Shown piece after piece: positions 13,568-41,775 of a stretch of 64,000 bases of DNA. The position numbers were made by a program, and so were the translations under genes. Below the pieces are notes generated by a model that was not told the origin of the DNA, ran no database searches, and worked only from the letters and a program-made list of their open reading frames with translations. How positions within the stretch are numbered: position 1 is the stretch's first letter; every line of letters starts with the position of its first letter. Origin of the DNA: a virus. The DNA is taken from IMG/VR virus record IMGVR_UViG_3300017971_000265, positions 1 through 64,000 of that record. One strand, given 5' to 3'.

Positions 13568-14405
13568 AGAGATGGATGATTCTGATATGGATGAAGGCGT
13601 TACAAAAATCGAGGATTTGCGACAGCGATCCGGTGTGCCAGGAGATGGGGTAGTTCCTCAGCGTCCGCCTCGTAAAAGGCTTGTTGGTCGCAATCCCAGT
13701 TTTCAATTGCGAAGCCTGAAGTGTTTCGAAGATGTAGATTTGATGGTCAAGAAGGGGGAACTGATTCGTAGCATTGTCAGTTTTATACAACAGGACAAGA
13801 CGGATAGTGAGGGGAATCTTATAGAGGGTGAGCTAAAAGATATGTCGTCTAGTGCTGTGTGGCATCTTGTCAACAATTATCGAAAATACCTAATGTCAGA
13901 TGATGCTGTAGTAGACAAAGCAACCCCCCAGGATCGGCCCGAAGAAGAAGATCCATTTTTTGAGCTTTACAAGATGCAGGAGCATTTTAAGCTGATGGAT
14001 CAGCGGATCGCGATGGAGACAGCTACGGAGAAGAATCTTACTAAATTATTTAGTACGACACATAAGGAGTTTTTGACAGCGGCACGCCTGGGGGATCTCA
14101 TTATGATGAAGAAAGAAAAATTGGGGCTCTTACGGAAGGAGAGAGGTGGTGTACGTCAGCGTGTTGGCAGTGGCGCTCCTGGCCGATTAGATTTGTCCGA
14201 GATAGTTTCAAATCCAGAATCGAGACAGAGGGTGTTGGGTTTTGTAGAGGCCCTTTTTGGTGATCCCGAGCTTTTGGAGGAAATAGGGGGGAAGAAGAAA
14301 GAGGCAGAAGAGAAGCCGAAAAAAGTTAGGTCGAAGAGAGAGAAACGGAAACGAAGAATTTCACCGCGTCCTTCGAGCGGAACATTTGGCAAGCGTAAGA
14401 GATGA
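13560..14405 (+). CDS. Possible terminase small subunit
   Basis: Directly upstream of and overlapping the large terminase; helical, with basic C-terminus (synteny only). Confidence 0.45.
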   Translation: MYREMDDSDMDEGVTKIEDLRQRSGVPGDGVVPQRPPRKRLVGRNPSFQLRSLKCFEDVDLMVKKGELIRSIVSFIQQDKTDSEGNLIEGELKDMSSSAVWHLVNNYRKYLMSDDAVVDKATPQDRPEEEDPFFELYKMQEHFKLMDQRIAMETATEKNLTKLFSTTHKEFLTAARLGDLIMMKKEKLGLLRKERGGVRQRVGSGAPGRLDLSEIVSNPESRQRVLGFVEALFGDPELLEEIGGKKKEAEEKPKKVRSKREKRKRRISPRPSSGTFGKRKR

Positions 14406-17400
14406 TTACTTCTACACGGGGGGGTCGTCACCGGTCCAAGCTTACTCTTATGGAGAAGCGTCAAGATCTGGCTCGTCAGTGGGAAAGTATGTCGGAGATA
14501 GAGAAGGCTGGTGTTCGGCACATTATAGATGAGGTTGATTTTCTCGGCACAGAGAATGATGTGGGGTTTGAGACGCTTGCTGAAATGTTTAGCTGCTCAG
14601 AGGTTTATCACGGTATAGCGGGGGCACATTATGTGGACCGTATCGCATCGGTAGAGGAATTTGTGTTGGATAATTACTATTTGGGCCATGTGGGGAAGTA
14701 TCTATGGCCCAAGTGGTTGGCAGATTTGCAGGAAGTATTTGCTGGTCGATATACCGAGGTGATTGTTACGGGGGCAATTGGCTCAGGGAAATGCCTAGAT
14801 GGCAAGACTGAATTCTATGATCCGGTGAGGGGATGTAGGTTAGTTTTAAAAGAGGTTTGTGCGCGTGATGACGTCCATGTTGTAGCTTTTGATCAAGAAA
14901 CGAACACGACTGTGACCAAAAAGGCTAAGGTGAGATTATCTGGAGAAAAATATCTGGGCACACTTACTCTTGCTAGTGGGAAAGTGATCAGATTAAGTCC
15001 AGATCATCCAGTTCTTACTGAGAATGGATGGAGCCCTATTGGTGATATAACTATGGGGGAGCTAATAGCAACGGCGCGTTCAGTTCCAGCGCCGGATTTT
15101 TGTTATGATGTTTCAGATGAAGAGGTAGAGTTTGTTGCTTTTCTTCTTGCAGAAAAAAGAGGAGTACTTGCAGAAAAAAGAGGAGTACTTGCAGAAAAAA
15201 GAGAAGTAGGTGCAACTGAAAACATTGGCAAAACGATTTTTCATCCACGGGGGACGAGATGGGTTCAGCATAAGTATGGTTTGCATGAGACGTCTCATAG
15301 AAAGCGTATACCTCCTGAATTTTATGGTTTATCAGATGAGCAACTGGGACTTTTCCTTAATAGAATATGGGCTTGCGATGGAAGTATTAATATTGCAGCT
15401 ATAGCTACGTTTGAGATTTGTTTGGCGAGTGAGTTGTTTATTCGTGATATTCAGCAACTACTATTGAGATTTGGTATTCATTCTCAACTTCAAAAAGGAG
15501 AGGGAAGTGAAGATTGGCAGTTAACTATTTCTGGGGCCGAAAACATCGGCCCATTGTGTGCTGCATTGGGGCCTGTCTTGGGAAAGGAAAGTGCATGGAA
15601 AGAGGCCGCTGAGTGGGCAAGGGTTAATCAAGACAATTCCAATATTGAACTCACTAGAATCGGGATGGATTTTGAGTCGCCAGAGCGATGTTCTTGGTGG
15701 ACTGGCGTGTTTTGGGATCGGGTAGTTTCGTTTGATATAGATAATGAGATGAGCCCTGTCTATGACGTAGAAGTTCCTGGGCTTAAAAATTTTGCGCCGC
15801 ATAGTGTTATTGTTCACAATACTACTTTCTCTGATATTGGTATTGCGTACATGTTCTATGAATTGTGCATGTTGAGAGATCCACAGGCGACGTTTGGACT
15901 GATGCCAGGGTCGGAAATTGTTTTGGTCTGTTTCAACCGTGATAAAAAACTAGCTAGAGATGTTACGTTTGGGGGGTTGAAGCGCAAATTAGAGGTTAGT
16001 CCTTTTTTTAAAGAGTTAGGATGCAAGTTTGGTGGTTCTGAGTTGGTTTATCCAGATAAGAATATACGGATCATTGCTGTTTCGGTTCGTTCTGCCGACG
16101 CTTTGGGCAGGGATGTGTTTGGTGGAGTTATTGATGAGACAGAGTTTATGGAGGGGAGCATTTTGAAAGGGGGAGGTGGAGTAGCAGCGCCTGGGGAAAA
16201 ACCATTTGCTGAACTTTTGCATGAGTCGATTACGCGACGTATGAAGTCTCGTTATGAACGTGCAGGTGCTTTGCCTGGAAAGCTCTTTCTTTCATCGTCG
16301 GCGCGACATAAACAATCGTTTACGAATCGCCGCATCGCGAGTGCTGCGAATGATCCGGGAATTTTTTGTCGAGACTATGCCATCTATGACGTCGCTCCTG
16401 CTGAGCGATTTTCAAAGAAGCATTTCTGGGTCATGGTTGGGACCGAGCGTATCAAGCATAAAATATTTCATAGGCGGGAATTTAGAGCGCTAGGGGGTGA
16501 GGGTAGGAAACAACTGGAGGAAAAGGGTTGTCGATTTATCAAGGTGCCGGATAATTTTCGGCCTGATTTTGAGAGAAATATTGAGGATGCTATTCGGGAA
16601 ATTGCCGGAGTAGTGACGGTTGTATTATCTCCGTTCATCCAGATGAGAGATCGCATCTATGATGCCATTGATCCGACACTATTTCATCCCATGGGGTCTG
16701 AGGTGTGGCGTACCGATGAGGCGACTCAAATAGATTGGCGACGATTGGTAAAACTGTATGAGCGGCGTGTTGGGCCGGGTCGGTTAGTAGAAGAATTGAG
16801 GCCCATTCGGCACCCTGATGCTACGCGGCACGCGCATATTGATATCAGTTTGGGAGCAAGCGATCCGGCAGGAATATGTATTGCTCACGTGGTTGATACG
16901 ATAGACGTCGAGAGGAGGACAGAGGGGGGGAGGGAAGTTGTAGAGCAGGCTCCTTTGATTGAGGTGGATCTGATGTTGCGAATACTTCCTCCCCTTAACG
17001 GGGAGATCGATCTGGGATCTATTCGTGCCCTGGTCTATGATTTTGTAAAGCATGGTTATAATTTAACTTTTGTCTCGATGGATCTTAAGTTTTTGAGTGC
17101 TGATACCCTACAACAATTTGAGCATCAGGGAATTGATACTGAGGTTATCAGTGTGGACAAGACTATTCAGCCCTATACTTATTGCAAAACTGCCCTATAT
17201 GAGGGCCGGTTGAGTCTCTATGAATACCCCATTGTTTTACAGGAACTGGAGCAGTTACAGAGAGATGAAATAAAACAGAAAGTTGACCACGTGCCGGGTG
17301 GAAGTAAAGATGTATCTGATAGCCTGGCAGGCGTGGTTTTTAGTCTTTCCACCAAGCAGGCATATCGTGCTCCGATTATGAGAGGCATTAGTGAGTACGA

Positions 17401-17518
17401 GGATCATGATAAGAGTTCGGAGTGGATACGCAAGACGATGCATCGCACAGGGGAAGAAGCGCCTCAAAAAGTTGGTGACGTCCCAGAAGACGGCAAGCCC
17501 ATAATATTTACCGGGTAA
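14402..17518 (+). CDS. terL: Terminase large subunit with intein
   Basis: Walker A GAIGSGK|TT split by the intein; Walker B GVIDE; nuclease residues HID and DH.PGGSKDVSD. Confidence 0.92.
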   Translation: MITSTRGGRHRSKLTLMEKRQDLARQWESMSEIEKAGVRHIIDEVDFLGTENDVGFETLAEMFSCSEVYHGIAGAHYVDRIASVEEFVLDNYYLGHVGKYLWPKWLADLQEVFAGRYTEVIVTGAIGSGKCLDGKTEFYDPVRGCRLVLKEVCARDDVHVVAFDQETNTTVTKKAKVRLSGEKYLGTLTLASGKVIRLSPDHPVLTENGWSPIGDITMGELIATARSVPAPDFCYDVSDEEVEFVAFLLAEKRGVLAEKRGVLAEKREVGATENIGKTIFHPRGTRWVQHKYGLHETSHRKRIPPEFYGLSDEQLGLFLNRIWACDGSINIAAIATFEICLASELFIRDIQQLLLRFGIHSQLQKGEGSEDWQLTISGAENIGPLCAALGPVLGKESAWKEAAEWARVNQDNSNIELTRIGMDFESPERCSWWTGVFWDRVVSFDIDNEMSPVYDVEVPGLKNFAPHSVIVHNTTFSDIGIAYMFYELCMLRDPQATFGLMPGSEIVLVCFNRDKKLARDVTFGGLKRKLEVSPFFKELGCKFGGSELVYPDKNIRIIAVSVRSADALGRDVFGGVIDETEFMEGSILKGGGGVAAPGEKPFAELLHESITRRMKSRYERAGALPGKLFLSSSARHKQSFTNRRIASAANDPGIFCRDYAIYDVAPAERFSKKHFWVMVGTERIKHKIFHRREFRALGGEGRKQLEEKGCRFIKVPDNFRPDFERNIEDAIREIAGVVTVVLSPFIQMRDRIYDAIDPTLFHPMGSEVWRTDEATQIDWRRLVKLYERRVGPGRLVEELRPIRHPDATRHAHIDISLGASDPAGICIAHVVDTIDVERRTEGGREVVEQAPLIEVDLMLRILPPLNGEIDLGSIRALVYDFVKHGYNLTFVSMDLKFLSADTLQQFEHQGIDTEVISVDKTIQPYTYCKTALYEGRLSLYEYPIVLQELEQLQRDEIKQKVDHVPGGSKDVSDSLAGVVFSLSTKQAYRAPIMRGISEYEDHDKSSEWIRKTMHRTGEEAPQKVGDVPEDGKPIIFTG
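14792..15820 (+). mobile_element. Intein (343 aa) in terminase Walker A, degenerate LAGLIDADG
   Basis: Starts CLDGKT; block B SPDHPVL; ends VYDVEV...IVHN followed by Thr. Confidence 0.92.
15146..15208 (+). repeat. 21-bp tandem repeat x3 (LAEKRGV) inside the intein
   Basis: cttgcagaaaaaagaggagta x2 plus cttgcagaaaaaagagaagta. Confidence 0.95.
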
Positions 17519-17529: not shown

Positions 17530-20500
17530 ATGACTCTAGTTGTAGCACAAAATATCAGGGATCAACTGCTTGGAAGGGGCGAGGGGAAGTATAGCCTCGA
17601 TACTATAGAGGACTATTTTCTTGAGGCGATGAATCTGATGTTGGGAGATCAGGATTTTGTGTCGGTTGGAGAGAATGTGTGGCAGGTAGAGGGTGAGACT
17701 CCGATTACCGTAGAGGTATTCAGAGTATTTCACGAGGCTACCGGACAAGATATCATCAATAGGGTAGTAATTGTGGCGGGCGACAATAGGAAAGAGGAGC
17801 GATGGGCACTTCCCCCGGCGCGTATTACCGAGAAGTTTTATTTGGATCATCTCAATGCGATCAAGGATTATGTTTCGCAATGTGTGATGGGCAGCATCAT
17901 AGGGGAAGACGTCGAGCTGGATGAAGCCACTTATAAACCAGGCAGCGTGGCTCACTTTCTTATGGTGCTGACGAGCAAGGTAATCCAGGCGGATCAGCGT
18001 CAAGAGAAGGCGGACATTAAGCGTGGAATATCGGTGAATATTTATCGCCTTGGACATTTTTTAAAAGCTATAAAGGATGTTCAAAAGGGTGTTTCTCGGG
18101 TGATGGGTAGCACTGAAAAGAAAGACTTATTGGTTTTGAAACAGCGAATCAGCCGAGCTTTTACTCCGCAGTTTTCTCCTTCCAAGTTTGTACAAAAAGC
18201 AATCGATAAATACCTGGAGACAGGTGCGCTTCCGAAGATCTCAGGCAAGCGGGGAACGAAACCTCCGTGGGAAGAAGTGGATGTAGAACATGATGACGTC
18301 GAGTTGGATGAAGGTTTGGCCAAGGCACCTTGGGAGAAGGGTGGTCCTTCATATGAGAAGCTTGGATATACAGTATTGGCAAAGGTAAAGGGGGTTTTTA
18401 AGACAGACAATGAGCAGGCGGCAAAACGGGTGGCTCGTGAGAAAGAACTCTCCTATGGATTATCAATCTATGGTTCGTGGTATATAGGCAGGCCGTATCA
18501 GCTAAAAAAGCTTGGTGTGCCTAGATGGCAGATAAGAGAAGACGTTTCATCTCTAAGGAAAAGAGACGGCGTGTCTTTATTTGTTGGGGAAGGGATAGAT
18601 CTAGATGAGGCTATTCAGTGGAAAAAGAAGAAGCAACCAGTGACAGGACTCGATAAGTTTGTTGCGGGCGATGTGCGTAACAAGATGGTACTTTCTCCAG
18701 CACTTGCTGGGGATGGCCGGATGAAGGGGTGGAGGCTCCAGTTTCCTAGTGGTGTCGTTATAAATCATCATATTGATGTTTCCGATTCTCATGGGGCGAA
18801 GCGGTGGGCGGAGAAAATAATTGCTACACGCAGAGAAGACGTCGAGTTGGGTGATACTGGATCAGTGGGGGATATTCAGTTGATGCGAGACGAGCTTCTG
18901 GGAGATATCGATGAGGCGTGTAAGACACCGGGCATGAAGAAGCGTTCTAAGGGGAAGGGTCGTGGCTTGGCCAAGGGCAAGGGCAGGGGGCCGTTGGGTA
19001 TTCCCATAGGAGACAAGGTTGAGTTGGAAGACGTCGAGATGAATGAGGCAAAAGAGTTGTCGCATAGAGAGGTGGAAAAAATAATTACATCCTATGCTTC
19101 GGAGTTGTTACCTCTTTTTGCAGACAAATGGAGTAGGTGGCCACAGGGCCAAGCGGCCAGGGAGATTTACAACGTTTTGATGAAAAAACATAAATTTTAT
19201 TCTAGCTCAAAGATGAGTAAGGAAGCTGGTGATATAAAGAATGTTGCTAGGACAATTTTGAAGCGGGGTGGTATCAAGGAAGACGTCGGGTTGGACGAGG
19301 CCCGGCGTAGGAAGAAGATGACCCCGCGAGTCGATCCCGACATCAAGAAGATTCGGCCAGGCACGGTGCCCAAGGAGATCACGCTGTTTGGTGGCAAGAA
19401 GCACGCGGTGGACCCCAAGGCGTGGAAGCACTTCGTGAAGGAGGCCAAGAAGAACAAGAAGTGGGCCGAAGATCACGAGTACGCGAAGAACCCGGACGAG
19501 TGGCCTGCCAGCGGCATAAGCAAGGACATGCTCAAGGAACGGCTCAGAAAATCGGTCGAGCAACTGGCCCTCGATTCGTATCGGTATGCCTATATGCGGT
19601 CGCACGGCGTGGCCAAGGCGTGGGGCTCGAATATGGCTCTCGATCCTGCCGCCAAGAGGAATTGGGAGAAGATCACAGGCAAGAAGATCGAGATCCCGAT
19701 GGACCCGGCTGAGAAGAAGGTGCTGGACGCGCTACGGAAGAAGCGCAGGAACGAGGGTGTAGACGTCTCTGGGTTGCGCGATGACCTTCTGGAGTGCGGG
19801 TGCGAGGACGAACTGGACGAGGCCAAGGGCTTTACCAAGGGGCAGCGCGTATCGACCCCGCTGGGACCGGGTGACGTGGCGTATCAGCGAATGGGTCCTC
19901 CGAACTACAGTGAGCCCGTGTCCGTGTCGGTGGTGATCGACAAGAAGCGCAACAAGCCGGGCTATACCGGGACGATGTTCAAGGCGAAGGACGTGAAGCC
20001 GCTCAAGGAGGATGTCGAGCTGGACGAGGGCATGACCAAGCACACCGTTTTCAAGTTCGGATCGCTGGATGATTTGTGGGATGCTCACGATGCTCTGCGA
20101 GAGGCTGGCATGAATGTCAGCCGGTGGACTGGTGGCTGGAACACCGGGATGCGTGGTCCAATCGCCGCGTGGGTTCACCAGAAGTCGAAGACTCTGGCAT
20201 TCGGTTCTCCGTCCGTAGCGAGCGAGGCCAAGAAGATCCTGTCCGCGAAGAAGATCAAGATCGCCAAGGAGTTCAAGGAAGACGTCGAGTTGGATGAGGG
20301 CGATTCCAATTATGCGCGTTCTGAACTTGGCTATTTGAAAAAAGGTGAGATATGGAGCATACAGATCAGGGATGACAGTGGTGGTGCAACAAAATGGATG
20401 GATATAAACAAAGAGGTAATTTCTGCGTTGAAAGGGAAGGGTCGGGGGACTTACGCTGCGAAGGAGATGGGCCGTTTGAAAAAAGGTGAGATATGGAGCA

Positions 20501-22515
20501 TGCAGATCAGGGATGACAGTGGTGGTGCAACGAAATGGATGAACGTTAGTCCTGGGAGAATCAAGGCGCTTATTTCGATATGGAGCAAGCAGGGTCAACG
20601 AGAAGACGTCGAGTTGGACGAGGCCAATAGAGGTTTGAAGTCACAGGCAAATTCTATTCTAGTGACGGCTCAGGAGATGGAGACAGATCCAGATTATTTG
20701 AGCAGAAAGCCTGTGTTGGTGAAGCCTTATGCGGAGAACATGAGGGGGCATGTCAAGGAGTTGTTGGCTCGAAGCAGAGATCCATTGGTAGAAGATATTG
20801 CCAATTCAATTAGCCAGATTCGACAGAAAATGGAAAAGATGGCTAGGTATAGTGGGGGGCGCATTCCTGCCGAAAGGTTTTCGGAGTTTTTTATAAAATT
20901 AAAAGCGCAGGCCAAGGGGATACTCTCTGCGCTGAGAAGCAAGTCGGTGGCGGAAGGCATATTAGATGAGGCCAAGAAGACCTACGTGGTGAACGTTAAG
21001 AAGTATTTCCGGGGCATCACGGATCGTGGCGCGGTGGTCAAGGCTAGGAGTGAGAAGGAGGCTATTGCCAAGGCTGCGAAGCAGCTTGGTAAGAAACCGA
21101 GTTATCTGGAGATTGAGAATGTGTACGAAGATGTCGAGATGAATGAGGGCGAAACTCTTTTTATTTCTCCGACTAAGGAGGGGAACAAAAAGTGGCAGAT
21201 CCTTCACAGCACTAGCGGGATGGTCGGGACAGGTGGCCAGATCATCAAGATAGGGGGCAAGAAGGAAATCAAGGCGCTGGCGGCCAAGCTCGCGAAGAAA
21301 TGGAAGGCCGAAGTCAAGGAACTGGCTGGCGAAGACATCGAGATGGAGGCTGGGGACGAAATTCACGCTCTCAGGGACGAGCTGCTTGGGGGCGTAGATG
21401 AGGCGTGCAAGACACCGGGTATGAAGAAGCGTTCTAAGGGGAAGGGTCGTGGCTTGGCCAAGGGCAAGGGCAGGGGTCCGTTGGGTATTCCTGTTGATGA
21501 GTTGGAAGACATCGAGCTGGATGAGGGCCGCAAGGTCAAGCAGTTTGAGTTGGGTGACATTGTACGTCATACCAAGAAGTTCTTGCGAAACACGGGTCAA
21601 TACACTGGAGTACCCAGGAGTGGAAAGGTTGTTGGTTTTATTGATCTTGCTGGAAAGAAACTACCAAGGGTGAAATGGGATGATGGTAATGAGGCTCCCA
21701 TTCAGCCGGAAAATATCGAAATACATCCGAGGCACAGGAGGCGTATCGAAGACGTCGAGTTGGATGAGGCTAAGACCATTGCTCAGTTTGATCCAGTGAA
21801 GGTGGGGACAAAGGTCAAGTTGGTTCGTGGCCTGTTTGATATGGAGAAAGATCTTTTGCGTAAGAAAAATGTGCATTTCACTTTCGTTCGGTGGGCGAAG
21901 CCTCACGGGCATGCTGTGGTGAAGGATAGTAGTGGAGCGAATTGGCATGTGCATCCCGAGTCTCTTATTCTTGCCGAAGATGTCGAGTTGGATGAGGCTA
22001 CGCCAGCTGGTGGTGCGGTAGCACTGAAAGCAATAGCGGCACTAATGAAGGATTTCCAATACGCTCCCAAGGAATCGAACAAGTATTATGCGGCGTTTGT
22101 ATATCGGGGACGAGGGGGTAATCAATCTAGGATACTCGCGAAAGCTGAGAGTGCCTTGGCTGATGCTGGTTTTGACGAAGCGTCTTTTGGCACGTCGGGG
22201 GCTGGGCTTATGGCCGAGACGAGGAGGGGCAAGGTCTGGGTCAATATATATCTACCAGGACTAAGGACAGAAGACGTCGAACTGGATGAGGCTGGTGTAA
22301 CTGGTTATTCAATTATGCAGCTTTATAATATTTTGGCCCGGACGGTTAAGAAGGGAACTGTAAAAGAGATCGAGATGATTCATAACGAGTTAAAGGCCAA
22401 GGGGGCTGATATGCACCTGGTTGACCTAATTATCAGATCGGGAGGAAAGCTTCCTGGTCGTGTCAAAAAAATAGCATCTTTGAGCGAGATGAGAAATGAG
22501 CTGCTGGGCAGCTAG
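17530..22515 (+). CDS. Putative head polyprotein: ~18 modules separated by EDVELDE-type linkers
   Basis: About 17 (E)DVE(L/M)(D/N)E(A/G)-like linkers; lies between terminase and portal; AAGGAG RBS. Confidence 0.75.
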   Translation: MTLVVAQNIRDQLLGRGEGKYSLDTIEDYFLEAMNLMLGDQDFVSVGENVWQVEGETPITVEVFRVFHEATGQDIINRVVIVAGDNRKEERWALPPARITEKFYLDHLNAIKDYVSQCVMGSIIGEDVELDEATYKPGSVAHFLMVLTSKVIQADQRQEKADIKRGISVNIYRLGHFLKAIKDVQKGVSRVMGSTEKKDLLVLKQRISRAFTPQFSPSKFVQKAIDKYLETGALPKISGKRGTKPPWEEVDVEHDDVELDEGLAKAPWEKGGPSYEKLGYTVLAKVKGVFKTDNEQAAKRVAREKELSYGLSIYGSWYIGRPYQLKKLGVPRWQIREDVSSLRKRDGVSLFVGEGIDLDEAIQWKKKKQPVTGLDKFVAGDVRNKMVLSPALAGDGRMKGWRLQFPSGVVINHHIDVSDSHGAKRWAEKIIATRREDVELGDTGSVGDIQLMRDELLGDIDEACKTPGMKKRSKGKGRGLAKGKGRGPLGIPIGDKVELEDVEMNEAKELSHREVEKIITSYASELLPLFADKWSRWPQGQAAREIYNVLMKKHKFYSSSKMSKEAGDIKNVARTILKRGGIKEDVGLDEARRRKKMTPRVDPDIKKIRPGTVPKEITLFGGKKHAVDPKAWKHFVKEAKKNKKWAEDHEYAKNPDEWPASGISKDMLKERLRKSVEQLALDSYRYAYMRSHGVAKAWGSNMALDPAAKRNWEKITGKKIEIPMDPAEKKVLDALRKKRRNEGVDVSGLRDDLLECGCEDELDEAKGFTKGQRVSTPLGPGDVAYQRMGPPNYSEPVSVSVVIDKKRNKPGYTGTMFKAKDVKPLKEDVELDEGMTKHTVFKFGSLDDLWDAHDALREAGMNVSRWTGGWNTGMRGPIAAWVHQKSKTLAFGSPSVASEAKKILSAKKIKIAKEFKEDVELDEGDSNYARSELGYLKKGEIWSIQIRDDSGGATKWMDINKEVISALKGKGRGTYAAKEMGRLKKGEIWSMQIRDDSGGATKWMNVSPGRIKALISIWSKQGQREDVELDEANRGLKSQANSILVTAQEMETDPDYLSRKPVLVKPYAENMRGHVKELLARSRDPLVEDIANSISQIRQKMEKMARYSGGRIPAERFSEFFIKLKAQAKGILSALRSKSVAEGILDEAKKTYVVNVKKYFRGITDRGAVVKARSEKEAIAKAAKQLGKKPSYLEIENVYEDVEMNEGETLFISPTKEGNKKWQILHSTSGMVGTGGQIIKIGGKKEIKALAAKLAKKWKAEVKELAGEDIEMEAGDEIHALRDELLGGVDEACKTPGMKKRSKGKGRGLAKGKGRGPLGIPVDELEDIELDEGRKVKQFELGDIVRHTKKFLRNTGQYTGVPRSGKVVGFIDLAGKKLPRVKWDDGNEAPIQPENIEIHPRHRRRIEDVELDEAKTIAQFDPVKVGTKVKLVRGLFDMEKDLLRKKNVHFTFVRWAKPHGHAVVKDSSGANWHVHPESLILAEDVELDEATPAGGAVALKAIAALMKDFQYAPKESNKYYAAFVYRGRGGNQSRILAKAESALADAGFDEASFGTSGAGLMAETRRGKVWVNIYLPGLRTEDVELDEAGVTGYSIMQLYNILARTVKKGTVKEIEMIHNELKAKGADMHLVDLIIRSGGKLPGRVKKIASLSEMRNELLGS

Positions 22516-22525
22516 AGGAGGATAG

Positions 22526-23824
22526 ATGTCGCGACTAGAGTCGATTCGGGCCTTACGGGATGCTGTTGTAGAAAACAAAAGGGTTGGAAATCAGTCTCGT
22601 CTTGAATCGGGAGAGAAGCCTCGGTCTAGGATCAGGTTGCCAATTTTGCCAACTAAGAAGAAAGAATTGAGGCAGAAAAAAATTGAGTGGAGTGGCATTG
22701 ATTTCCGTCAATGGCTTACTGACGTCAACGAAGCGGTAGATTCTATTACTGGGATGGACATGGATATTTTGCCAGAGATGCCTTGGCAGAGCTGGTTCAA
22801 AGAAGGGATGGAGCCAGAGGATGCGGCAAGGCTTGCGCTGGAAGCTGCAGAGTTAGGGGATGATATCTCTGAAGAGGAGGAGGAGTTGAATGAGCGTGGC
22901 TTTTTTAGGCCGTCGTATCAAAAATGGATCAGCAAGCTCGATAAGCGATTAAGAAAAAAGGGAGGGGCTACTCTTTCAGCTCTCAAAAGGGCGGGTCGAG
23001 TCTCTAATTCAACTCTCCATTCTATATTTATGAGCCAGGCCACGGCAGAAATGGCTGCTCGGATGCTGCTTCAGGCCGTAGGAACTCCGATGGAAGATGA
23101 AGCAGTGTCTCTTCGGAGGCGCAATTTTGTATCGGAGAACCAGATGGAGGATTCTTTTGATCAATTGCGTGACCTAATGGATGAGTTTGGGATTGGTACT
23201 AGCCGTCCCCCTGTGACGACACGGGATATTGGCGAACCAGAGGAAGGGCTCGATGAGGAAAATACATCTTCTTCTCAGGAAACCCATGAGCTTCCTCAGA
23301 AGGCCCAGAGTCCTTCTCAGTTGTCCCAAGACGTATCAAGTGCCATTGCTGCCGTAAGGGCTGTGGAGGAGAAGGAGCGGGCACACAAGGATGCTCAGAG
23401 TGAGATAGAAGAGGCTTCTGTTCAAGGTGGAGACTATGGAAGGTGGGGGCCAGCTACGACAGCGGCTGGATCGGCTGGCAGATCCTTAGCGTCGGCCATT
23501 GCTAAGGCGAGTGGTGAGAGCTATCATTTTCATCAGGAAGGGATGGCTCAAAGTGCGGATGTGGGATCGGATCTTTGGTTTGAGATCGAGCCAAAAAATC
23601 CTAAGAGCCCTATTTACTATTTGGGTATCAAGATAAAAGGGGACAAGGAAGATCCGCGATGGGATGTTATGCTTAAGAAGGGTGCTGGGCTGGGATCAGC
23701 TACTTCGGTTGGGTCGAAACGCGGCATAGAGACGTCTAAGTTAAAGGGGGCGATTAACGAACTCAAGGCTGGGTTGAAACAAAAAACGAAAAAGAAGGAT
23801 GGTGATAAAGATGCGGCCAGTTAA
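22526..23824 (+). CDS. Putative internal head protein, multi-module
   Basis: EEELNE, SLRRRNFVSE, GLDEE and EIEEA candidate processing sites; GAGGAGG RBS. Confidence 0.6.
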   Translation: MSRLESIRALRDAVVENKRVGNQSRLESGEKPRSRIRLPILPTKKKELRQKKIEWSGIDFRQWLTDVNEAVDSITGMDMDILPEMPWQSWFKEGMEPEDAARLALEAAELGDDISEEEEELNERGFFRPSYQKWISKLDKRLRKKGGATLSALKRAGRVSNSTLHSIFMSQATAEMAARMLLQAVGTPMEDEAVSLRRRNFVSENQMEDSFDQLRDLMDEFGIGTSRPPVTTRDIGEPEEGLDEENTSSSQETHELPQKAQSPSQLSQDVSSAIAAVRAVEEKERAHKDAQSEIEEASVQGGDYGRWGPATTAAGSAGRSLASAIAKASGESYHFHQEGMAQSADVGSDLWFEIEPKNPKSPIYYLGIKIKGDKEDPRWDVMLKKGAGLGSATSVGSKRGIETSKLKGAINELKAGLKQKTKKKDGDKDAAS

Positions 23825-24110: not shown

Positions 24111-26858
24111 ATGTCTAAGATCTCGCAGGCATCGGCCCAATTTATTCGGAATATTTTTGGGCGAGAGAGAGCAAAGAGCGATCTGGCAATTTCGTCTAGG
24201 GAGTTGATTAGAACGGCCCAGGGTGGGATGTATGGATCTGGAATAGATGTGGGAGGTATCGGAGGTATTGGAGAAGCCCTAGCTCTCGATAGACGTCTCC
24301 TCTATCGTTACGGTGACTATGAGGAGATGGATGAATACCCCGATATTAATGCGGCCCTGGATATTTATGCTGACGATACTACACAGGTTGATGGGGCTAA
24401 GAGACAAAGCGTGTGGGTCGAAAGTGATGATGGCAAAATCAAGGATGAACTAAATGATCTTTTTCATGAACGTTTAAAGATTGAGGAAAATATCTGGTCT
24501 ATTGCGAGAACTCTCTCAAAGTACGGGAATGATTTCGAAGAAATTGTAGTGGGGGATGGCGGGGTTGTTGATCTTAACTATTTACCTATCGCCAGTGTGA
24601 GGCGCGTAGAGGATAAGCGGGGAAACCTCTTAGGATTTGCACAGACCTTTTCTGGCAACGTGGATATATCGCCGGAACAGTTTGAGAAATTACGAATTCC
24701 CGGAGGGGGCGCTGTAGGGCCTCAAAAGGACGTCGCTGCATTTGAAGATTGGCGTGTTGTGCATATGAGATTGCTCTCGAAGCATCGTGAATCAAAGTAT
24801 GGATGGAGTGTGGTAGATGCGGCGAGATGGATCTGGAAAAGATTGATGCTGCTCGAAGATGCCGTGATGGTTTACAAGTTATGTTTGCGTGGTGACTCTC
24901 AGGTATGGACAACAAATGGTAAGAAGGCCATTAGGGATCTTGAGGAGGGGGAAGAGGTTTTTTCCTACACAAGGGATGATGTCCTGAAAAAGACTAGGGT
25001 TGTTTATAAAAAACATAATGGGAAAGATCGACTTTTTAGGATTAAAAGCGCCCATCGTGAGCTGTTTGCTAATGCGACACACCCCGTATTGGTTGAGACA
25101 ATCATTGGCAAGGGAAGTGGCAAATCGTGTGGGCGCAGGATGGATTATGTCGAGGTAAAGGATCTTAGGCCGGGTGAGCATCGTCTTGTGACTCCTTTTA
25201 GGGATGATAGTCTTTGTGAAGATATACCATTGGTCGTGCCGGAGGCGCTTGACGACAATAAGAAGTTAAATCTACCCAAAGTAGTAAATGCTGATTTTGC
25301 AAAATGGTTTGGCTTTATGATCGGTGTTGGTTTTGCTTCGGCGCGATCTTTTATCGAGGGAGATAGAGCATGTCTGGTCTACGAGGTAGGTTTTGTATCC
25401 GGGGACAAGAGGGACATTAATGAGAAGTATCGAGAACTATTTGCTTCCTTCTTTGGTGAGCCCAAATTTGTGAAAGCTGAGAGGTCCAGGCATGATTGTG
25501 TCGGTAAGTTTTTAATATCTTCGAGGGCTCTTTATGAGTTTATGATATTGAATGGATTTATGGCGCATAACAGACGGATTCCAGAATGGGTCTTTAGGTC
25601 TTCAACGGTTGTACGGGAAGCGTTCCTTGAGGGATTAGCTGATGGCTATTGCGAAGGGGGTGGGGTCAGTGTTGAACGCGGTCGTGTAAGCATATCTCTT
25701 GAGTCGTGTAATTTTGAATTGGTCAGAGATGTACGTGAACTAGTGATGCAGCTTGGTTTTAGGGTTGGCAAGATTACGTCTAGGGAAAGACCGGATAGTT
25801 ATCTTCCCGAGACGACTATTTATTGTGTGAGTTGGAGTTATGATAGGCAACCTATGACTGAGGAGCTGGAAAGTGTTGAAGAGGTCGAGGTTGATGATAT
25901 TTGGGACATTGGTGTTGAGGCTGATGAGCATAATTTCGTAGCGAATGGAATAGTTGTTCATAACACTAGGAGTCCATCTAGGTATGCTTTTTATATTGAT
26001 GTGGGAAAATCGAATCGACAAGAGGCAGAGCGGTATGTGCAAGAGGTGATGCAGCGATTGAAGAAGAAGAAGTTTGTGAATCCCAAGACGGGAAAATTGG
26101 ATCTTAAAAATAACCCCATGGGGATGGATGAAGACTTCTTTTTGGCAATGCGTGAGGGTAGGGAGCAGACCAGGGTAGAGTCATTAATGGGGCCGTCGTA
26201 TCAGCAAGTTGACGATGTGGAATATTTTTTAAACAAACTCTATGCTGCGATAAGAATCCCCAAGGCGTATCTGGGATATGATCAAAATCTCCCAAGCAAG
26301 GCAACCCTAAGTATGGAAGACGTCCGTTTCGGGCGGACTATTTTGCGCATTCAGCGAGAGGTGCGCAACGGGTTGAGAAAGATTGCTAATGTTGATTTAG
26401 CGGCGAGGCGAATAGATCCTGCTGCGACTAAGTTTGATATAATGATGGCTGTACCGAGTGCCATATTCGAGCTTGGCCAGATGGAGATTAGGCGAGCACG
26501 GGCCGATCTCGCCTCTATGATGGAACGGCACGTATCTCTCTACTGGATCTTGAGCAACATCTATGGTTTGGCAGAGGATGAAATAGCCGAAATAACCAAG
26601 CAGAAAAAAACTGAACAAAAGATGATGGGCGGTGCTGGAGGCGGTATGGGTGGGGGAGGTTTTGAGTCGGTTGATCCCAGGCAGGGCAGGGTAATTAGTG
26701 AGCGTGAATTGATGGATGGAAAAAAAGAAGACGAGAAACGTGTCGAAGAGATTGTTCACAAGGTGGTAAATGATCCATCGAGTCCGTTGGGTAGGCAACT
26801 GCGAGAAACGGGACATCTCGTTCGTGAAATTGTCCATTCTCTTCATAGTTCTGCATAA
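24111..26858 (+). CDS. Portal protein (T4 gp20-like) with intein
   Basis: YEEMDEYPDINAALDIYAD, LMLLEDAVMVY..|TRSPSR.AFYIDVG and DVEYFLNKLY.A.RIP motifs. Confidence 0.92.
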   Translation: MSKISQASAQFIRNIFGRERAKSDLAISSRELIRTAQGGMYGSGIDVGGIGGIGEALALDRRLLYRYGDYEEMDEYPDINAALDIYADDTTQVDGAKRQSVWVESDDGKIKDELNDLFHERLKIEENIWSIARTLSKYGNDFEEIVVGDGGVVDLNYLPIASVRRVEDKRGNLLGFAQTFSGNVDISPEQFEKLRIPGGGAVGPQKDVAAFEDWRVVHMRLLSKHRESKYGWSVVDAARWIWKRLMLLEDAVMVYKLCLRGDSQVWTTNGKKAIRDLEEGEEVFSYTRDDVLKKTRVVYKKHNGKDRLFRIKSAHRELFANATHPVLVETIIGKGSGKSCGRRMDYVEVKDLRPGEHRLVTPFRDDSLCEDIPLVVPEALDDNKKLNLPKVVNADFAKWFGFMIGVGFASARSFIEGDRACLVYEVGFVSGDKRDINEKYRELFASFFGEPKFVKAERSRHDCVGKFLISSRALYEFMILNGFMAHNRRIPEWVFRSSTVVREAFLEGLADGYCEGGGVSVERGRVSISLESCNFELVRDVRELVMQLGFRVGKITSRERPDSYLPETTIYCVSWSYDRQPMTEELESVEEVEVDDIWDIGVEADEHNFVANGIVVHNTRSPSRYAFYIDVGKSNRQEAERYVQEVMQRLKKKKFVNPKTGKLDLKNNPMGMDEDFFLAMREGREQTRVESLMGPSYQQVDDVEYFLNKLYAAIRIPKAYLGYDQNLPSKATLSMEDVRFGRTILRIQREVRNGLRKIANVDLAARRIDPAATKFDIMMAVPSAIFELGQMEIRRARADLASMMERHVSLYWILSNIYGLAEDEIAEITKQKKTEQKMMGGAGGGMGGGGFESVDPRQGRVISERELMDGKKEDEKRVEEIVHKVVNDPSSPLGRQLRETGHLVREIVHSLHSSA
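24882..25964 (+). mobile_element. Intein (361 aa) in portal, degenerate LAGLIDADG
   Basis: CLRGDS...NATHPVL...HNFVANGIVVHN followed by Thr. Confidence 0.92.
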
Positions 26859-27917: not shown

Positions 27918-29165
27918 ATGGCAGTTCGACCTCTCGAAGAAGATTTCCAACGTTTAGGATTATCACAAGATGAAATCCGTGCGTCACTTCACAATATGGG
28001 GCGACCCTTGGGTGAAATGGCAGAGGCGGATCTCAGCGATGGTTCTGAAGAAGAGGAAGATGAGGACTTCGAGGAATCCTATCTGAGTGATCTGATAGGT
28101 CATGACGACGATGAGGCAGAGGACTTTGACGAGATGTCAGAGGAAGATTATTTTGAGTTTGTTGACAATCTTTCCGATGAAGAGTTGGATAGGTTGCTTG
28201 AAAACTCGGAGATGTTCGAGGCGAAGTTTATCAAGCTTACTCCTTTGGGTACGCGCAAGACGGCTCGCAGGAAGAGGAAGAAATGGCTCAAAACGGCTGC
28301 GGGTCAAGCCTATGCAAGAAAGCAGATGCAGAAGCGAAAGCGTCCCGCTTTTAAAAAGCAAGCCAAGAAGCAGCGTATTAGGCGCAAAAGAGCGGGTGGA
28401 GCACGTAAGGGCTATATGATGCGTGCCGGAGTCGAAAATCCTTCAGAAGGGAAAGAAGCTATACATGAAGATCTCATGGAAAGCTTGACCGATCTCGCTG
28501 AGTCGATTGAGCGTGAACCTGTTTCTCGTTTCGACGAATATGTCACAGCATTTAATGCCCTTGCTGATCTGGGAGAGCTGGGTGCTGCAAAGATCATGGA
28601 CGAAGACGAAGATGCGGCAATGGACGTCTTGAATCTGTCGCTCCAGGCAGAAGAAGTGTTGAAGCTCATGGAGGACATGGGTGGAGCGCTCGACGAAGAC
28701 GAAGACGAGGTGCTGGAAGAGGCTCTGGCCCAGCTGATGGAGCTTGCCGGAGAACTCGTCGAGGAGTATGGCTTGCTTCTCGAAGATGAAGACGAGGAAG
28801 AGTATGAGGACGAGGAGCTGGAAGAAGATGAGGAAGAGATCAATCCCTTCCTAGAGGCTGCTGCTTCGCTTCGTGAAGCTAGACGTCCCCCCAAGGGCAA
28901 GAAGCGCTTTCTTCTCAATCCTAAGTCCAGAAAGGCCGTAAAGGGTCGGTCGAAGTGGAGCAAGGCCGGTGGCAATGCTAAGAGGCAGTTGGCTGGACGC
29001 AAAGATGTGAGGAATAAGCAGGCTTTGCTTGGCTATCTCAAGATGGTGAAGGCGGGCAAGGTTGCTCCTGGCCAACCCATTATGATGAGTAAAACCGGGA
29101 AGCCCCTCAGCAAGGGTGCGAGAGCTGCCAAGAAATTGGCTGCGGCCCGAAGGAAAGCTGGCTGA
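27918..29165 (+). CDS. Putative prohead core/scaffold protein with alternating acidic and basic blocks
   Basis: AGGAGG RBS; position just upstream of the protease, like T4 core genes. Confidence 0.6.
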   Translation: MAVRPLEEDFQRLGLSQDEIRASLHNMGRPLGEMAEADLSDGSEEEEDEDFEESYLSDLIGHDDDEAEDFDEMSEEDYFEFVDNLSDEELDRLLENSEMFEAKFIKLTPLGTRKTARRKRKKWLKTAAGQAYARKQMQKRKRPAFKKQAKKQRIRRKRAGGARKGYMMRAGVENPSEGKEAIHEDLMESLTDLAESIEREPVSRFDEYVTAFNALADLGELGAAKIMDEDEDAAMDVLNLSLQAEEVLKLMEDMGGALDEDEDEVLEEALAQLMELAGELVEEYGLLLEDEDEEEYEDEELEEDEEEINPFLEAAASLREARRPPKGKKRFLLNPKSRKAVKGRSKWSKAGGNAKRQLAGRKDVRNKQALLGYLKMVKAGKVAPGQPIMMSKTGKPLSKGARAAKKLAAARRKAG

Positions 29166-38462: not shown

Positions 38463-39413
38463 ATGCTTGGAAAATCCATAGAATTTTTGGAAGATATCAT
38501 CTCGATATTGGGGGAACAACCCGTGGGAGATGAAAACGATGTGGATGCATTTGGCATGGATGCACATACTAGGAGAAGGTTACGGGTTGATCGTTTATTG
38601 CAACCTAGAGGGAAGAAAAAGCCGCGTAAGCCGATGCGTACCAAAATGCCGCATTCGTTGGCCAGAATTCCCCGGCTGGGGAATGAGGAGATTGTGAATT
38701 CATCACTGAGGAGACGAGGTTATCTAGCAGAGAGCGTCCGGGTTCTTAAGAAAGCTCCTCCCAAGACCGCTGTGGCAGATGTGTACGGGTTAAGATTCTC
38801 GTCGTGGGACGGGAAGCTGGCATTGGTGACGACATCTGCATTAAGTGCTTTCAGCTCAGGCGAGCATATCAGTCAATGGTTTAATCCAGAGACATTAGCG
38901 CAGCGATATGTTGTACGGTTTGCTGTAGACAGCCGAGGGAAACCTATACCGGTGACGAATAGTAGTTGGATTGGGGCGCAGCCTTACCTTGCTGATGCGC
39001 ATCTTCCTTACGAGAAGAACACATTTAAGCTTGGTAGCCGTGGATATGGCATGAGGGCCGAAGTTGAAGGATCTTTTTCAAAACCTCAAGAGTTTTGGGT
39101 AAAGAAATCGTTCAAGAATCTGGATGGTGCACAGACCAACGTAGTGGAACACTATTTCCGCAAGCGCGGTTTTATTGACGTCTCTGATTTCAAACTCACG
39201 GTGCGGGATTGGCGCATTATGCTTGGCATGGGTTTTGACGAGATTCAGGAGAAACTGCATTACGAGAAGGCGAAGGAGGCTGATTATTTGGTTACGAGGA
39301 TACTCGGACATTCTACTATCGATGATAGTTTGATGAACAGAGTTTGGAAGGGCATCAAGGGCGTATACGCCTTGACACGGCAGGGTAAGATAAAATTCGC
39401 TGTAGAAAGGTGA
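38463..39413 (+). CDS. Putative internal head protein with internal class-A motif
   Basis: SSLRRRGYLAES near residue 80-92. Confidence 0.65.
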   Translation: MLGKSIEFLEDIISILGEQPVGDENDVDAFGMDAHTRRRLRVDRLLQPRGKKKPRKPMRTKMPHSLARIPRLGNEEIVNSSLRRRGYLAESVRVLKKAPPKTAVADVYGLRFSSWDGKLALVTTSALSAFSSGEHISQWFNPETLAQRYVVRFAVDSRGKPIPVTNSSWIGAQPYLADAHLPYEKNTFKLGSRGYGMRAEVEGSFSKPQEFWVKKSFKNLDGAQTNVVEHYFRKRGFIDVSDFKLTVRDWRIMLGMGFDEIQEKLHYEKAKEADYLVTRILGHSTIDDSLMNRVWKGIKGVYALTRQGKIKFAVER

Positions 39414-40795: not shown

Positions 40796-40796
40796 T

Positions 40797-41767: not shown

Positions 41768-41775
41768 GAGACGTC

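What the first reader, a model, noticed from the sequence alone, without database searches (positions are those of the whole stretch)
17530..22515. 1661-aa phage polyprotein: ~18 unrelated modules strung on EDVELDE protease-site linkers
Seen: about 17 acidic linkers, including EDVELDEA/G eight times (one as DDVELDEG), EDVEMNEA/G twice, EDVGLDEA, EDIELDEG, IDLDEA, DELDEA and ILDEA. They separate mostly Lys/Arg-rich modules of about 40-130 aa. A recurring (L/M/I)RD(E/D/Q)LL(G) motif occurs at the N-terminus, internally three times and as MRNELLGS at the C-terminus. Established: T4 gp21-type proteases, one of which is encoded at 29165, cut after (L/I)-x-E, often before A/G. Inference: one gene encodes a magazine of small internal proteins, loaded into the prohead as a single chain and released during maturation. 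This resembles viral polyprotein processing and is, to my knowledge, not a described strategy for tailed-phage effector delivery.
Basis: partly seen in the sequence, partly recalled or inferred. Interest (0 to 1): 0.88.

Follow-up and report, generated by a model that had tools for sequence, protein, structure and literature searches.

The report
Phage head-cargo polyprotein with protease-site linkers
An uncultured T4-like phage encodes one 1661-residue chain of about 18 unrelated small, mostly basic domains joined by a repeated acidic peptide that matches the cutting site of the phage's own head-maturation protease, so it probably delivers many small internal head proteins from a single gene.

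Summary
ORF 17530-22515 (+) encodes 1661 aa. It has 12 strict [ED]D[VI][EG][LM][DN]E[AG] linkers and 6 looser (L/I/V)-x-E|A sites. The strict motif occurs nowhere else in the window.

The pieces are unrelated to each other and mostly basic. Several belong to large families of free-standing 60-150 aa metagenomic proteins whose ends coincide with the module ends. Module 2 folds alone (pLDDT 90), and its linker tail is modelled at low confidence and as coil.

The phage has an intein-split S77 (T4 gp21-type) protease with the His and Ser motifs aligned. Its capsid protein carries FLTE|A in the same alignment column as the known T4 gp23 cut. At least 15 small genes carry N-terminal leaders ending in (L/I/V)-x-E, and the polyprotein's RDELLG motif resembles one leader class.

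Syntenic relatives carry polyproteins of 1092 and 1060 aa with the same linkers but other modules in other orders. More distant phages keep the peptide with different codons.

Best reading (0.62): head-internal cargo polyprotein cut by the prohead protease. Cleavage, packaging and module functions are not shown. It is a new variant of T4-type internal-protein processing; polyvalent proteins are the nearest described concept. An overlapping window of this same genome was flagged earlier in this scan.

The parts
17530..22515 (+). Polyprotein ORF, 1661 aa (P0001)
   Evidence: seen on 3 contigs
17530..17925 (+). Module 1 (residues 1-132). It is acidic (pI 4.4) and carries the N-terminal leader-like motif NIRDQLLG. 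It is the only module shared, at about 30% identity and in the same N-terminal position, with the syntenic G002 polyprotein.
17908..17931 (+). Strict linker EDVELDE|A
18295..18318 (+). Strict linker DDVELDE|G
19030..19053 (+). Strict linker EDVEMNE|A
19282..19305 (+). Strict linker EDVGLDE|A
20011..20034 (+). Strict linker EDVELDE|G
20281..20304 (+). Strict linker EDVELDE|G
20605..20628 (+). Strict linker EDVELDE|A
21130..21153 (+). Strict linker EDVEMNE|G
21508..21531 (+). Strict linker EDIELDE|G
21751..21774 (+). Strict linker EDVELDE|A
21979..22002 (+). Strict linker EDVELDE|A
22273..22296 (+). Strict linker EDVELDE|A
18601..18612 (+). Looser site (ID)LDE|A
18907..18918 (+). Looser site IDE|A. 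It directly follows RDELLG and directly precedes the first CKTPGMKK peptide.
19813..19824 (+). Looser site (DE)LDE|A
20962..20973 (+). Looser site (I)LDE|A
21394..21405 (+). Looser site VDE|A, after the second RDELLG and before the second CKTPGMKK peptide
   Evidence: (sequence)
18889..19004 (+). First copy of the RDELLG leader plus basic Gly-rich peptide (CKTPGMKKRSKGKGRGLAKGKGRGPLGIP). Its DNA is 91% identical to the second copy.
   Evidence: homologues
21376..21491 (+). Second copy of the RDELLG leader plus basic Gly-rich peptide
22492..22512 (+). C-terminal MRNELLGS, a leader-like motif at the very end of the chain
17926..18312 (+). Module 2 (residues 133-261). It is a four-helix domain. 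Many free-standing 100-150 aa homologues exist, one of them a separate 232-aa ORF in huge phage LR745208.1.
19300..19821 (+). Module 7 (residues 591-764), a family of free-standing proteins of about 100-135 aa
19822..20028 (+). Module 8 (residues 765-833), a family of free-standing proteins of 60-125 aa
20329..20541 (+). Internal tandem duplication inside module 11 (72 nt, 94% identical)
20971..21147 (+). Module 13 (residues 1148-1206). It is 77% identical to a module of P0004, where it lies after the module-15 homologue, i.e. in the other order.
21526..21768 (+). Module 15 (residues 1333-1413), 72% identical to a module of P0004
29165..31927 (+). Prohead protease, Peptidase_S77 (T4 gp21 type), split by an intein placed right after the catalytic His motif (GELDHP|C). 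The Ser motif GVSSRG is present in the C-extein.
31956..33440 (+). Major capsid protein (Gp23 family)
32151..32165 (+). Predicted capsid-protein maturation cut FLTE|A (residues 66-70). It lies in the same alignment column as T4 gp23 FLTE65|A66.
14402..17518 (+). Large terminase with an intein in the P-loop. The C-extein is 31% identical over 96% of its length to annotated terminases of Vibrio phages.
22526..23824 (+). 432-aa protein with the N-terminus SIRALRDAVV (leader-like). It is conserved next to the portal gene in G001 and G002.
24111..26858 (+). Portal protein (Portal_T4) with an intein
27918..29165 (+). 415-aa protein, acidic in the middle with basic ends. It is a candidate scaffold with several (L/M)xE|(A/S) sites.
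   Evidence: composition and position only
39410..45011 (+). Cluster of small genes with N-terminal leaders. Class I is M.LR.R.YL.E| and class II is M.L..(V/I)NELL...(L/I).E|. More such genes lie at 10444, 11441, 12139, 37712 and 51345.
   Evidence: testing earlier notes

Best explanation
The gene encodes a polyprotein of head-internal proteins. Inferred mechanism: the chain is taken into the prohead core through its N-terminal leader-like segment (NIRDQLLG, related to the phage's class II leaders and to the T4 gp24 propeptide KINELLRE|) and/or its conserved acidic module 1. The intein-spliced S77 prohead protease then cuts after the Glu of each (L/I/M/V)-x-E|(A/G) linker. This releases about 18 small, mostly basic pieces, including two copies of a protamine-like Gly/Lys/Arg peptide. 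These pieces would stay with the packaged DNA and enter the host with it. The linker peptide is conserved across lineages as the protease site. Within a genome its near-uniform DNA probably also serves as a joint for swapping modules. Shown here: the anatomy, the fit of the site to the protease specificity, the autonomy of the modules, and the turnover of modules between sister phages. Inferred: packaging, cleavage, retention in the head, ejection, and any function of the modules.
For: (1) The linker has L/I/M at P3, Glu at P1 and A/G at P1' at 17 sites (18 with VDE|A), against 3.8 expected by shuffling. T4 gp21 cuts after L/I-X-E (PMC9026906). (2) The S77 protease is present and its His and Ser motifs align with T4 gp21. 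(3) The capsid protein has a single candidate site, FLTE|A, in the column of the known T4 gp23 cut. G001 and G002 have LSE|S and LTE|S there. (4) At least 15 small genes in the window carry N-terminal leaders ending in (L/I/V)-x-E, like T4 CTS-tagged internal proteins. The RDELLG motif of the polyprotein resembles class II. In G001 the 1060-aa polyprotein lies inside that small-gene cluster and starts with ...MRDVILG. (5) The modules are independent units. They show no mutual similarity. A phmmer search found 600 hits piling onto single modules, many of them free-standing proteins of 60-150 aa. Their boundaries coincide with the module boundaries. The AF2 model of module 2 has pLDDT 89.8, while residues 103-129 including the linker are coil at low confidence. 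(6) Syntenic G002 has a 1092-aa polyprotein in the same slot between terminase and portal. It shares only module 1; its other modules recur in G001, P0003 and P0004 in other orders. Such turnover resembles the hypervariable T4 internal proteins rather than essential structural proteins. (7) E(E/D)VELDE(A/G) is kept in distant phages with different codons: GTT in L061, GTA in L065, GTC here. Selection therefore acts on the peptide. (8) The basic peptide occurs elsewhere flanked by two linkers (L129).
Against: There is no proteomic or biochemical evidence, because the phage is an uncultured IMG/VR contig about 46% complete. L-x-E is a short motif. T4-type proteases do not cut every such site, and most SPN3US head proteins are not cut (PMC10052503). 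No module matches any Pfam, PHROG or solved fold, so the cargo function is unknown. The N-terminal motif is only loosely like the class II leaders and is not followed by a clear nearby cut site. The invariant GTC Val codon in the linkers (11/11 against 15/108 elsewhere) shows DNA-level homogenisation, which could partly explain the uniformity of the linkers without any protease.
Confidence: 0.62

Rival explanations
1. Sacrificial core or scaffold-like protein. The chain is built into the prohead core and cut at the linkers, but the pieces are expelled like T4 gp22, gp67 and gp68 fragments. They would not be kept as cargo or ejected into the host.
For: T4 core proteins are cut into many fragments at L/I-X-E; gp22 has 16 such motifs in 269 aa. 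The gene lies in the head-assembly cluster next to terminase and portal.
Against: A separate acidic, scaffold-like 415-aa ORF sits just upstream of the protease. The pieces are folded domains of 60-170 aa with pI above 9, which would bind DNA and are large for exit through shell pores. The module content is not conserved between syntenic phages, and the gene sits elsewhere in G001, which is unlike a size-determining scaffold.
Confidence: 0.13
2. Uncut beads-on-a-string protein. The acidic linkers would be flexible spacers, or neutralise the basic domains, in a large multidomain internal or structural protein. Their uniformity would come from DNA-level duplication and gene conversion.
For: The Val codon is always GTC and the first Glu mostly GAA in the linkers, unlike the rest of the gene. 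In L061 the linker DNA copies are nearly identical. N4 vRNAP and some polyvalent proteins are packaged unprocessed (PMC5512222).
Against: The same peptide is kept with different codons in distant lineages. P3, P1 and P1' are the invariant positions, exactly those that matter for gp21-type cleavage. The strict 8-residue linker occurs only in this ORF in the window, and the (L/I/V)-x-E core recurs at the predicted capsid-protein cut and at the ends of the small-gene leaders. Spacers rarely need an 8-residue fixed sequence.
Confidence: 0.12
3. Polyprotein processed outside the capsid. It would be cut in the cytoplasm by the phage protease or another protease, or only after injection, to give small proteins that are not head cargo.
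For: Nothing shows packaging. Polyvalent proteins are proposed to be processed after delivery.
Against: S77 proteases act inside the prohead in all studied cases. Leader-like motifs, the head-gene context, and clustering with leader-bearing genes in G001 all point to the prohead. No peptidase domain lies within the chain.
Confidence: 0.08
4. Assembly or gene-calling artefact: a chimeric ORF made by mis-assembly across the repeated linker DNA.
For: The repeated 24-nt linkers could confuse an assembler.
Against: All 12 linker DNA versions differ. The identical protein is on 3 contigs. Independent contigs G001 and G002 and proteins P0002-P0004 show the same architecture.
Confidence: 0.02

Closest known systems
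T4 internal proteins IPI, IPII, IPIII and Alt with capsid targeting sequences, processed by gp21 (PMC9026906, PMC3012670)
   Same: They are small, basic and hypervariable. They are targeted to the prohead core by a short leader and released by cleavage after L/I-X-E by an S77 protease. This phage has the protease, the conserved capsid-protein cut and many leader-bearing small genes.
   Different: In T4 each internal protein is its own gene with one N-terminal cut (Alt has two). Here about 18 unrelated units are translated as one chain with an extended, nearly invariant 8-residue site between them. There is no sequence similarity to IPI-III.
T4 prohead core proteins gp22, gp67 and gp68, and the multiply cut propeptides and inner-body proteins of phiKZ, 201phi2-1 and SPN3US (PMC9026906, PMC10052503)
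   Same: A single head protein is cut at several x-x-E sites by the prohead protease.
   Different: Those are single proteins or propeptides degraded into peptides, with a few documented sites per protein (14 sites in 9 SPN3US proteins). They are not strings of autonomous domains that exist elsewhere as separate genes.
Polyvalent proteins of phages and conjugative elements (Iyer, Burroughs, Anand, de Souza, Aravind 2017, PMC5512222)
   Same: Many unrelated domains in one polypeptide, encoded among late or virion genes. They are proposed to be packaged, delivered with the DNA and processed into separate units, and they show extensive domain shuffling.
   Different: Polyvalent proteins carry recognisable enzymatic effector domains and usually an embedded zincin-like MPTase for self-processing. 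Here no known domain and no peptidase is found. Processing would be in trans by the prohead protease at a dedicated repeated linker.
Adenovirus core precursors (pVII, pX/Mu) cut by the adenoviral protease (PMC4246237, seen only as title and abstract; the rest is general knowledge)
   Same: A maturation protease releases small, very basic DNA-condensing peptides inside the capsid. The CKTPGMKK...GRGPLGIP peptide is a candidate analogue.
   Different: The protease, site and virus lineage are unrelated. The resemblance is functional only and was not tested.

Membership tests
T4-type CTS-tagged internal head proteins | The phage encodes a gp21-type (Peptidase_S77) prohead protease | tested here: met
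   PF03420 scores 36.7 bits against a cut-off of 27, and phrog_207 gives 8.6e-28. The His and Ser motifs align to T4 gp21.
T4-type CTS-tagged internal head proteins | Cleavage motif L/I-X-E| at the junctions | tested here: met
   There are 17-18 (L/I/M/V)-x-E|(A/G) sites. The capsid-protein cut FLTE|A is conserved with T4.
T4-type CTS-tagged internal head proteins | Short N-terminal targeting leader removed by the protease | tested here: inconclusive
   N-terminal NIRDQLLG resembles the class II leaders of the window's small genes and T4 gp24 KINELLRE|, but no clear cut site follows within 20 residues.
T4-type CTS-tagged internal head proteins | Presence of processed forms in the virion and ejection into the host | not testable with these tools
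   The phage is an uncultured metagenomic contig.
T4-type CTS-tagged internal head proteins | Sequence homology to IPI, IPII, IPIII or Alt | tested here: not met
   No PHROG or Pfam hit for the whole protein or for the ten of its modules that were scanned singly in Pfam. tblastn against 50,697 phage records gives one hit, to module 2 in an unannotated huge phage.
Polyvalent proteins (Iyer et al. 2017) | Many distinct domains in one polypeptide in a phage virion or late-gene context | tested here: met
   and the gene context.
Polyvalent proteins (Iyer et al. 2017) | Embedded MPTase or other peptidase, or known effector domains (ParB, methylase, ART, lysozyme, etc.) | tested here: not met
   No Pfam family for the whole protein at E <= 0.01; the ten modules scanned singly gave no family at or above its gathering score, only chance-level hits with E >= 0.09 in three of them.
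Prohead scaffold or core protein (gp22-like) | Conserved, essential assembly protein kept in syntenic relatives | tested here: not met
   Only module 1 is shared with G002. G001 has no such gene in that slot. A separate scaffold-like ORF exists at 27918.
Tail tape measure or other large tail protein | Position in the tail module after the tube and chaperone genes | tested here: not met
   Sheath (47954), tube (50127), a 1204-aa ORF (53206) and baseplate (60684) form the tail module. The polyprotein lies between terminase and portal.

The most novel reading that the evidence does not exclude
The E(D/E)VELDE(A/G) linker is a dual-purpose joint used by a broad clade of T4-related aquatic phages. 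As a peptide it is the prohead-protease site that frees each unit. As near-uniform DNA within a genome it is the recombination seam through which cargo modules are gained, lost and reordered. The polyprotein would then be an exchangeable magazine, functionally comparable to an integron cassette array, of injected small proteins. These would include a widespread protamine-like DNA-condensing peptide and probably anti-defence factors.
Probability: 0.3. Interest if true: 0.85.

Novelty: new variant of a known kind. Interest (0 to 1): 0.68.

Why it matters
If the linkers are cut, tailed phages use a true polyprotein strategy to load the capsid. One translation product and one targeting signal would supply equimolar amounts of many unrelated small proteins. 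The cargo set would be rewired simply by swapping cassettes at a fixed joint.

That would widen the picture of what phages inject besides DNA. It would give a sequence rule (three or more E[DE]VELDE[AG] linkers plus an S77 protease) for finding virion cargo in metagenomes. It would also assign a context to several large families of unannotated small proteins: 600 hits in the representative library.

The linker is also a ready-made candidate tag for packaging and releasing several foreign proteins in engineered T4-like capsids.

Tried and rejected
- **Family scans.** Pfam and PHROG scans of the whole protein, Pfam scans of ten single modules, and both libraries on ten free-standing homologues gave nothing significant.
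- **ESM Atlas.** It holds the sequence but gave no usable neighbour.
- **Structure prediction.** Single-sequence AF2 of residues 1333-1661 was useless (pLDDT 43).
- **Fold searches for module 2.** Foldseek against PDB and BFVD gave no match at E <= 0.001. VIA-align wide gave only generic helical bundles with Z <= 7.4. The fold therefore says nothing about function.
- **Joint alignment of modules 7 and 8.** MAFFT mis-aligned it, so I abandoned it.
- **The search for related loci.** P0001 or P0003 found no relatives in viral or metagenome contigs.
- **Degenerate DNA patterns.** Patterns for modules 2 and 8 found nothing in viral contigs. The module 8 pattern, also tried on genome contigs, gave only chance hits there.
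- **Cluster look-up.** It showed only short unnamed metagenome contigs.
- **Cultured phages.** Modules 7 and 8 have no tblastn hit.
- **Literature.** A search for the linker strings found nothing relevant.
- **Terminase.** The C-extein had no Pfam, PHROG or PDB sequence hit. It was identified by tblastn instead.
- **Tape measure reading.** Rejected on gene order.
Full report
**1.

The + strand ORF 17530-22515 is open for 1661 codons.
- There are 12 strict copies of [ED]D[VI][EG][LM][DN]E[AG].
- There are looser sites IDLDE|A, DIDE|A, ELDE|A, ILDE|A and VDE|A, plus a doubtful ALRE|A.
- There are five R(D/N)(E/D/Q)LL motifs: one N-terminal, three internal and one at the very C-terminus.

In a six-frame translation of the whole 64-kb window the strict linker occurs only in this ORF. 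[LIM]xE[AG] occurs 17 times against 3.8 +/- 1.9 (maximum 11) in 2000 shuffles.

Cutting at these sites gives 18 pieces of 25-174 aa. Twelve have pI >= 9 even though each carries the acidic linker at its C-terminus. Piece 1 is acidic, with pI 4.4.

All-against-all BLASTP finds no similarity between pieces except two things. One is the linkers themselves. The other is a duplicated unit, RDELLG-(D/G)(I/V)DE|A followed by a basic Gly-rich peptide, whose DNA copies are 91% identical. There is also a tandem duplication inside piece 11. The identical protein is recorded on three contigs.

**2. Context**

The window is part of a 77.9-kb IMG/VR viral contig estimated at 46% complete. All genes run on the + strand. 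The head module reads as follows.

| Coordinates | Gene | Evidence |
|---|---|---|
| 14402 | Large terminase with intein; C-extein 31% identical over 96% to annotated Vibrio-phage terminases | |
| 17530 | The polyprotein | |
| 22526 | 432-aa protein | |
| 24111 | T4-type portal with intein | |
| 26973 | 310-aa protein | |
| 27918 | 415-aa protein, acidic middle with basic ends; candidate scaffold | |
| 29165 | Peptidase_S77 protease with intein | |
| 31956 | Gp23-family capsid protein | |

Head-tail adaptor, sheath, tube, a 1204-aa ORF and baseplate genes follow. The phage is therefore a myovirus, and the tail roles are taken by other genes. The capsid protein is only about 30-33% identical to any cultured phage.

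**3. Does the linker fit this phage's protease?**

T4 gp21 cuts C-terminal to Glu after L/I-X-E, and capsid targeting sequences are removed this way (PMC9026906).

The two exteins of the window protease align with T4 gp21. GELDHP matches GELNHP, the catalytic His region, and GVSSRGFGS matches GVSSRGLGS. The intein sits directly after the His motif.

The capsid protein has exactly one [LIMV]xE[AGS] site, FLTE|A at residues 66-70. In a MAFFT alignment it falls in the very column of T4 gp23 FLTE65|A66, the known maturation cut. Two sister phages have LSE|S and LTE|S there. The specificity L-x-E|small is therefore well grounded for this phage. The linker ...V-E-L-D-E|A/G fits it at P3, P1 and P1'.

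**4. The phage uses leaders on many small proteins**

Following leads from earlier first-stage notes, I listed the N-termini of all + strand ORFs.
- At least eight small genes begin with M.LR.R.YL.E|. This resembles the end of the capsid-protein prodomain, LKRRFLTE|.
- At least seven begin with M.L..(V/I)NELL..., followed within a few residues by (L/I).E|.
- The second class resembles the T4 gp24 propeptide MAKINELLRE|S and the RDELLG motif of the polyprotein.

This is the pattern of T4 internal proteins, on a larger scale. In the polyprotein each internal RDELLG is followed by a looser cut site. Two of them (DIDE|A and VDE|A) are then followed by the basic peptide. These look like formerly separate leader-plus-cargo units fused in frame.

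**5. Modules are autonomous units**

A phmmer search of residues 133-1332 against 1.84 billion representatives gave 600 proteins at E <= 1e-3 and 82 at E <= 1e-10. Each hit covers one module: piece 2, 7, 8, 12, 13 or the basic peptide. Many hits are free-standing proteins of 60-150 aa.

In the alignment of piece 2 with 26 homologues, the conserved domain starts where the piece starts and ends just before the linker. The free-standing homologues carry their own short N-terminal extensions. One homologue is a separate 232-aa ORF with its own leader in the 485-kb phage LR745208.1.

AF2 with that alignment gives a confident four-helix domain (mean pLDDT 89.8; above 96 for residues 11-100). Residues 103-129, including the linker, are coil with low confidence. 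The refutation condition 'one repetitive structural domain' is therefore not met.

No module matches Pfam, PHROGs or a solved fold, so what the modules do is unknown.

**6. Relatives**

A degenerate DNA scan for EDVELDE[AG] in IMG/VR found about ten ORFs with 2-7 E(E/D)VELDE(A/G)-type linkers between small basic modules. These lie on loci L061, L074, L025, L003, L049, L067, L042, L099, L065 and L038. Some of these loci share a contig (L049/L067) or repeat the same ORF (L074/L025).

Two of the contigs have the same head module as the window, with S77 protease and Gp23 capsid protein.
- **G002.** A 1092-aa polyprotein occupies the same slot between terminase and portal. It shares only the N-terminal module 1 with the window protein (about 30% identity, same position).
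- **G001.** A 1060-aa polyprotein with about ten linkers and an N-terminal ...MRDVILG lies instead inside the cluster of small leader-bearing genes downstream of the capsid gene.

Modules recur among G001, G002, P0003 and P0004 in different orders. P0004 carries homologues of pieces 15 and 13 at 72-77% identity in the reverse order and with other linkers.

The basic peptide (C.TPGMK..S.G.GRGLA.G.G.GP.G.P) is widespread. It occurs in one to three copies in small proteins, and in L129 it is flanked by two linkers.

More distant, AT-rich contigs are related to Methylophilales phage Melnitz (Kyanoviridae). Melnitz genes 20 and 21 carry one linker each. These contigs keep EEVELDE(A/G) with their own codons.

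**7. Peptide-level versus DNA-level conservation**

Across lineages the peptide is constant while the codons differ: Val is GTT in L061, GTA in L065 and GTC here. This argues for selection on the peptide.

Within the window gene all 12 linker DNAs differ. Even so, Val is always GTC (11/11, against 15 of 108 elsewhere) and the first Glu is mostly GAA. There is therefore also DNA-level homogenisation or shared descent. That is consistent with the linker acting as a recombination seam for cassette exchange. This agrees with earlier first-stage notes on the same stretch.

**8. Interpretation**

The chain is a cargo polyprotein taken into the prohead and cut by the prohead protease into many small, mostly basic proteins. 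I put it at 0.62.

The main rivals are these.

| Rival reading | Confidence |
|---|---|
| Sacrificial core protein whose fragments leave the head | 0.13 |
| Uncut beads-on-a-string protein whose linkers are uniform through gene conversion | 0.12 |
| Processing outside the capsid | 0.08 |
| Assembly or gene-calling artefact | 0.02 |

Against the first rival stand the separate scaffold candidate, the size and charge of the pieces, and the lack of conservation between syntenic phages. Against the second stands the cross-lineage conservation of precisely the P3, P1 and P1' positions. Nothing here shows cleavage, packaging, ejection or function.

**9. Comparison with known systems**

It works like T4 internal proteins: CTS-like leaders, gp21-type cleavage, and a hypervariable basic cargo. 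It is not homologous to them, and it differs in stringing the units into one chain.
- **Multiply cut head proteins.** These are known: T4 gp22, gp67 and gp68, and the phiKZ and SPN3US propeptides (PMC9026906; PMC10052503). They are single proteins degraded at a few sites.
- **Polyvalent proteins (PMC5512222).** These are the nearest described concept. They have many shuffled domains in one packaged polypeptide that is later processed. They carry recognisable enzymatic domains and an embedded MPTase, neither of which is found here.

Literature searches for the linker strings and for phage polyproteins cut by prohead proteases found no description of this architecture. I file it as a new variant of a known kind.

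An overlapping window of the same genome had already been flagged for this stretch by first-stage readers. No follow-up existed.

**10. Limits**

Both structure-prediction jobs are used, and only module 2 has a reliable model.

Noticed in passing
window 14402-17518, 24111-26858, 29165-31927: Inteins interrupt three head-assembly and packaging proteins. Terminase is split in the P-loop by an intein carrying a LAGLIDADG domain. The portal also carries one. The protease is split right after the catalytic His motif. Relatives G001 and G002 have long portal or terminase ORFs too.
   Followed up: partly
window 10444, 11441, 12139, 37712, 39410-45011, 51345: There are two classes of N-terminal leaders on at least 15 otherwise unrelated small ORFs. 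Class I is M.LR.R.YL.E| and resembles the capsid-protein prodomain end LKRRFLTE|. Class II is M.L..(V/I)NELL...(L/I).E| and resembles the T4 gp24 propeptide MAKINELLRE|. The same leaders occur in G001 (L137).
   Followed up: partly
window 2495-2561, 3220-3389, 4442-4611, 6018-6187, 6749-6918, 7199-7368, 11322-11443, 34477-34647: A dispersed repeat of about 160 nt occurs in 7-8 copies at 60-92% identity, mostly between early-region genes. It contains the small palindrome GAGACTAGTCTTAGCCGAGACTAGC. It creates spurious look-alike ORF starts (MLLGDVEPGSPAL..., MRLVLAETSGRH...). There is no Rfam match, and the RNA fold is not better than shuffles (z = -0.74). It is possibly a regulatory or promoter cassette.
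   Followed up: partly
window 1-64000: GC skew is unusually strong and uniform, about +0.2 to +0.35 in most 2-kb windows and never below +0.12. All identified genes are on the + strand.
   Followed up: no
window 18919-19005 and 21406-21492; P0037, P0038, P0041, P0123, L129: The basic Gly-rich peptide family C.TPG(M/E/K)K.(R/K)S.G.GRGLA.G.G.GP.G.P is widespread in metagenomes. It occurs in 1-3 copies per small protein and has no Pfam or PHROG family. It is a candidate protamine-like DNA-condensing peptide.
   Followed up: partly
L110 5538-6609 (LR745208.1, 485-kb phage): Two adjacent ORFs begin with the same leader, M(T)TLRSKLIRLAH.(D/N)P.LRP.LLPLL. One of them is the free-standing homologue of module 2. 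P0065 has the same leader. This may be another capsid-targeting leader class in huge phages.
   Followed up: no
window 8836-10386: A 516-aa DNA methyltransferase (phrog_67, 2e-68) lies upstream of the head module.
   Followed up: no
window 53206-56820: A 1204-aa ORF after the tube gene has no PHROG hit. It is a likely tape measure by position only.
   Followed up: no
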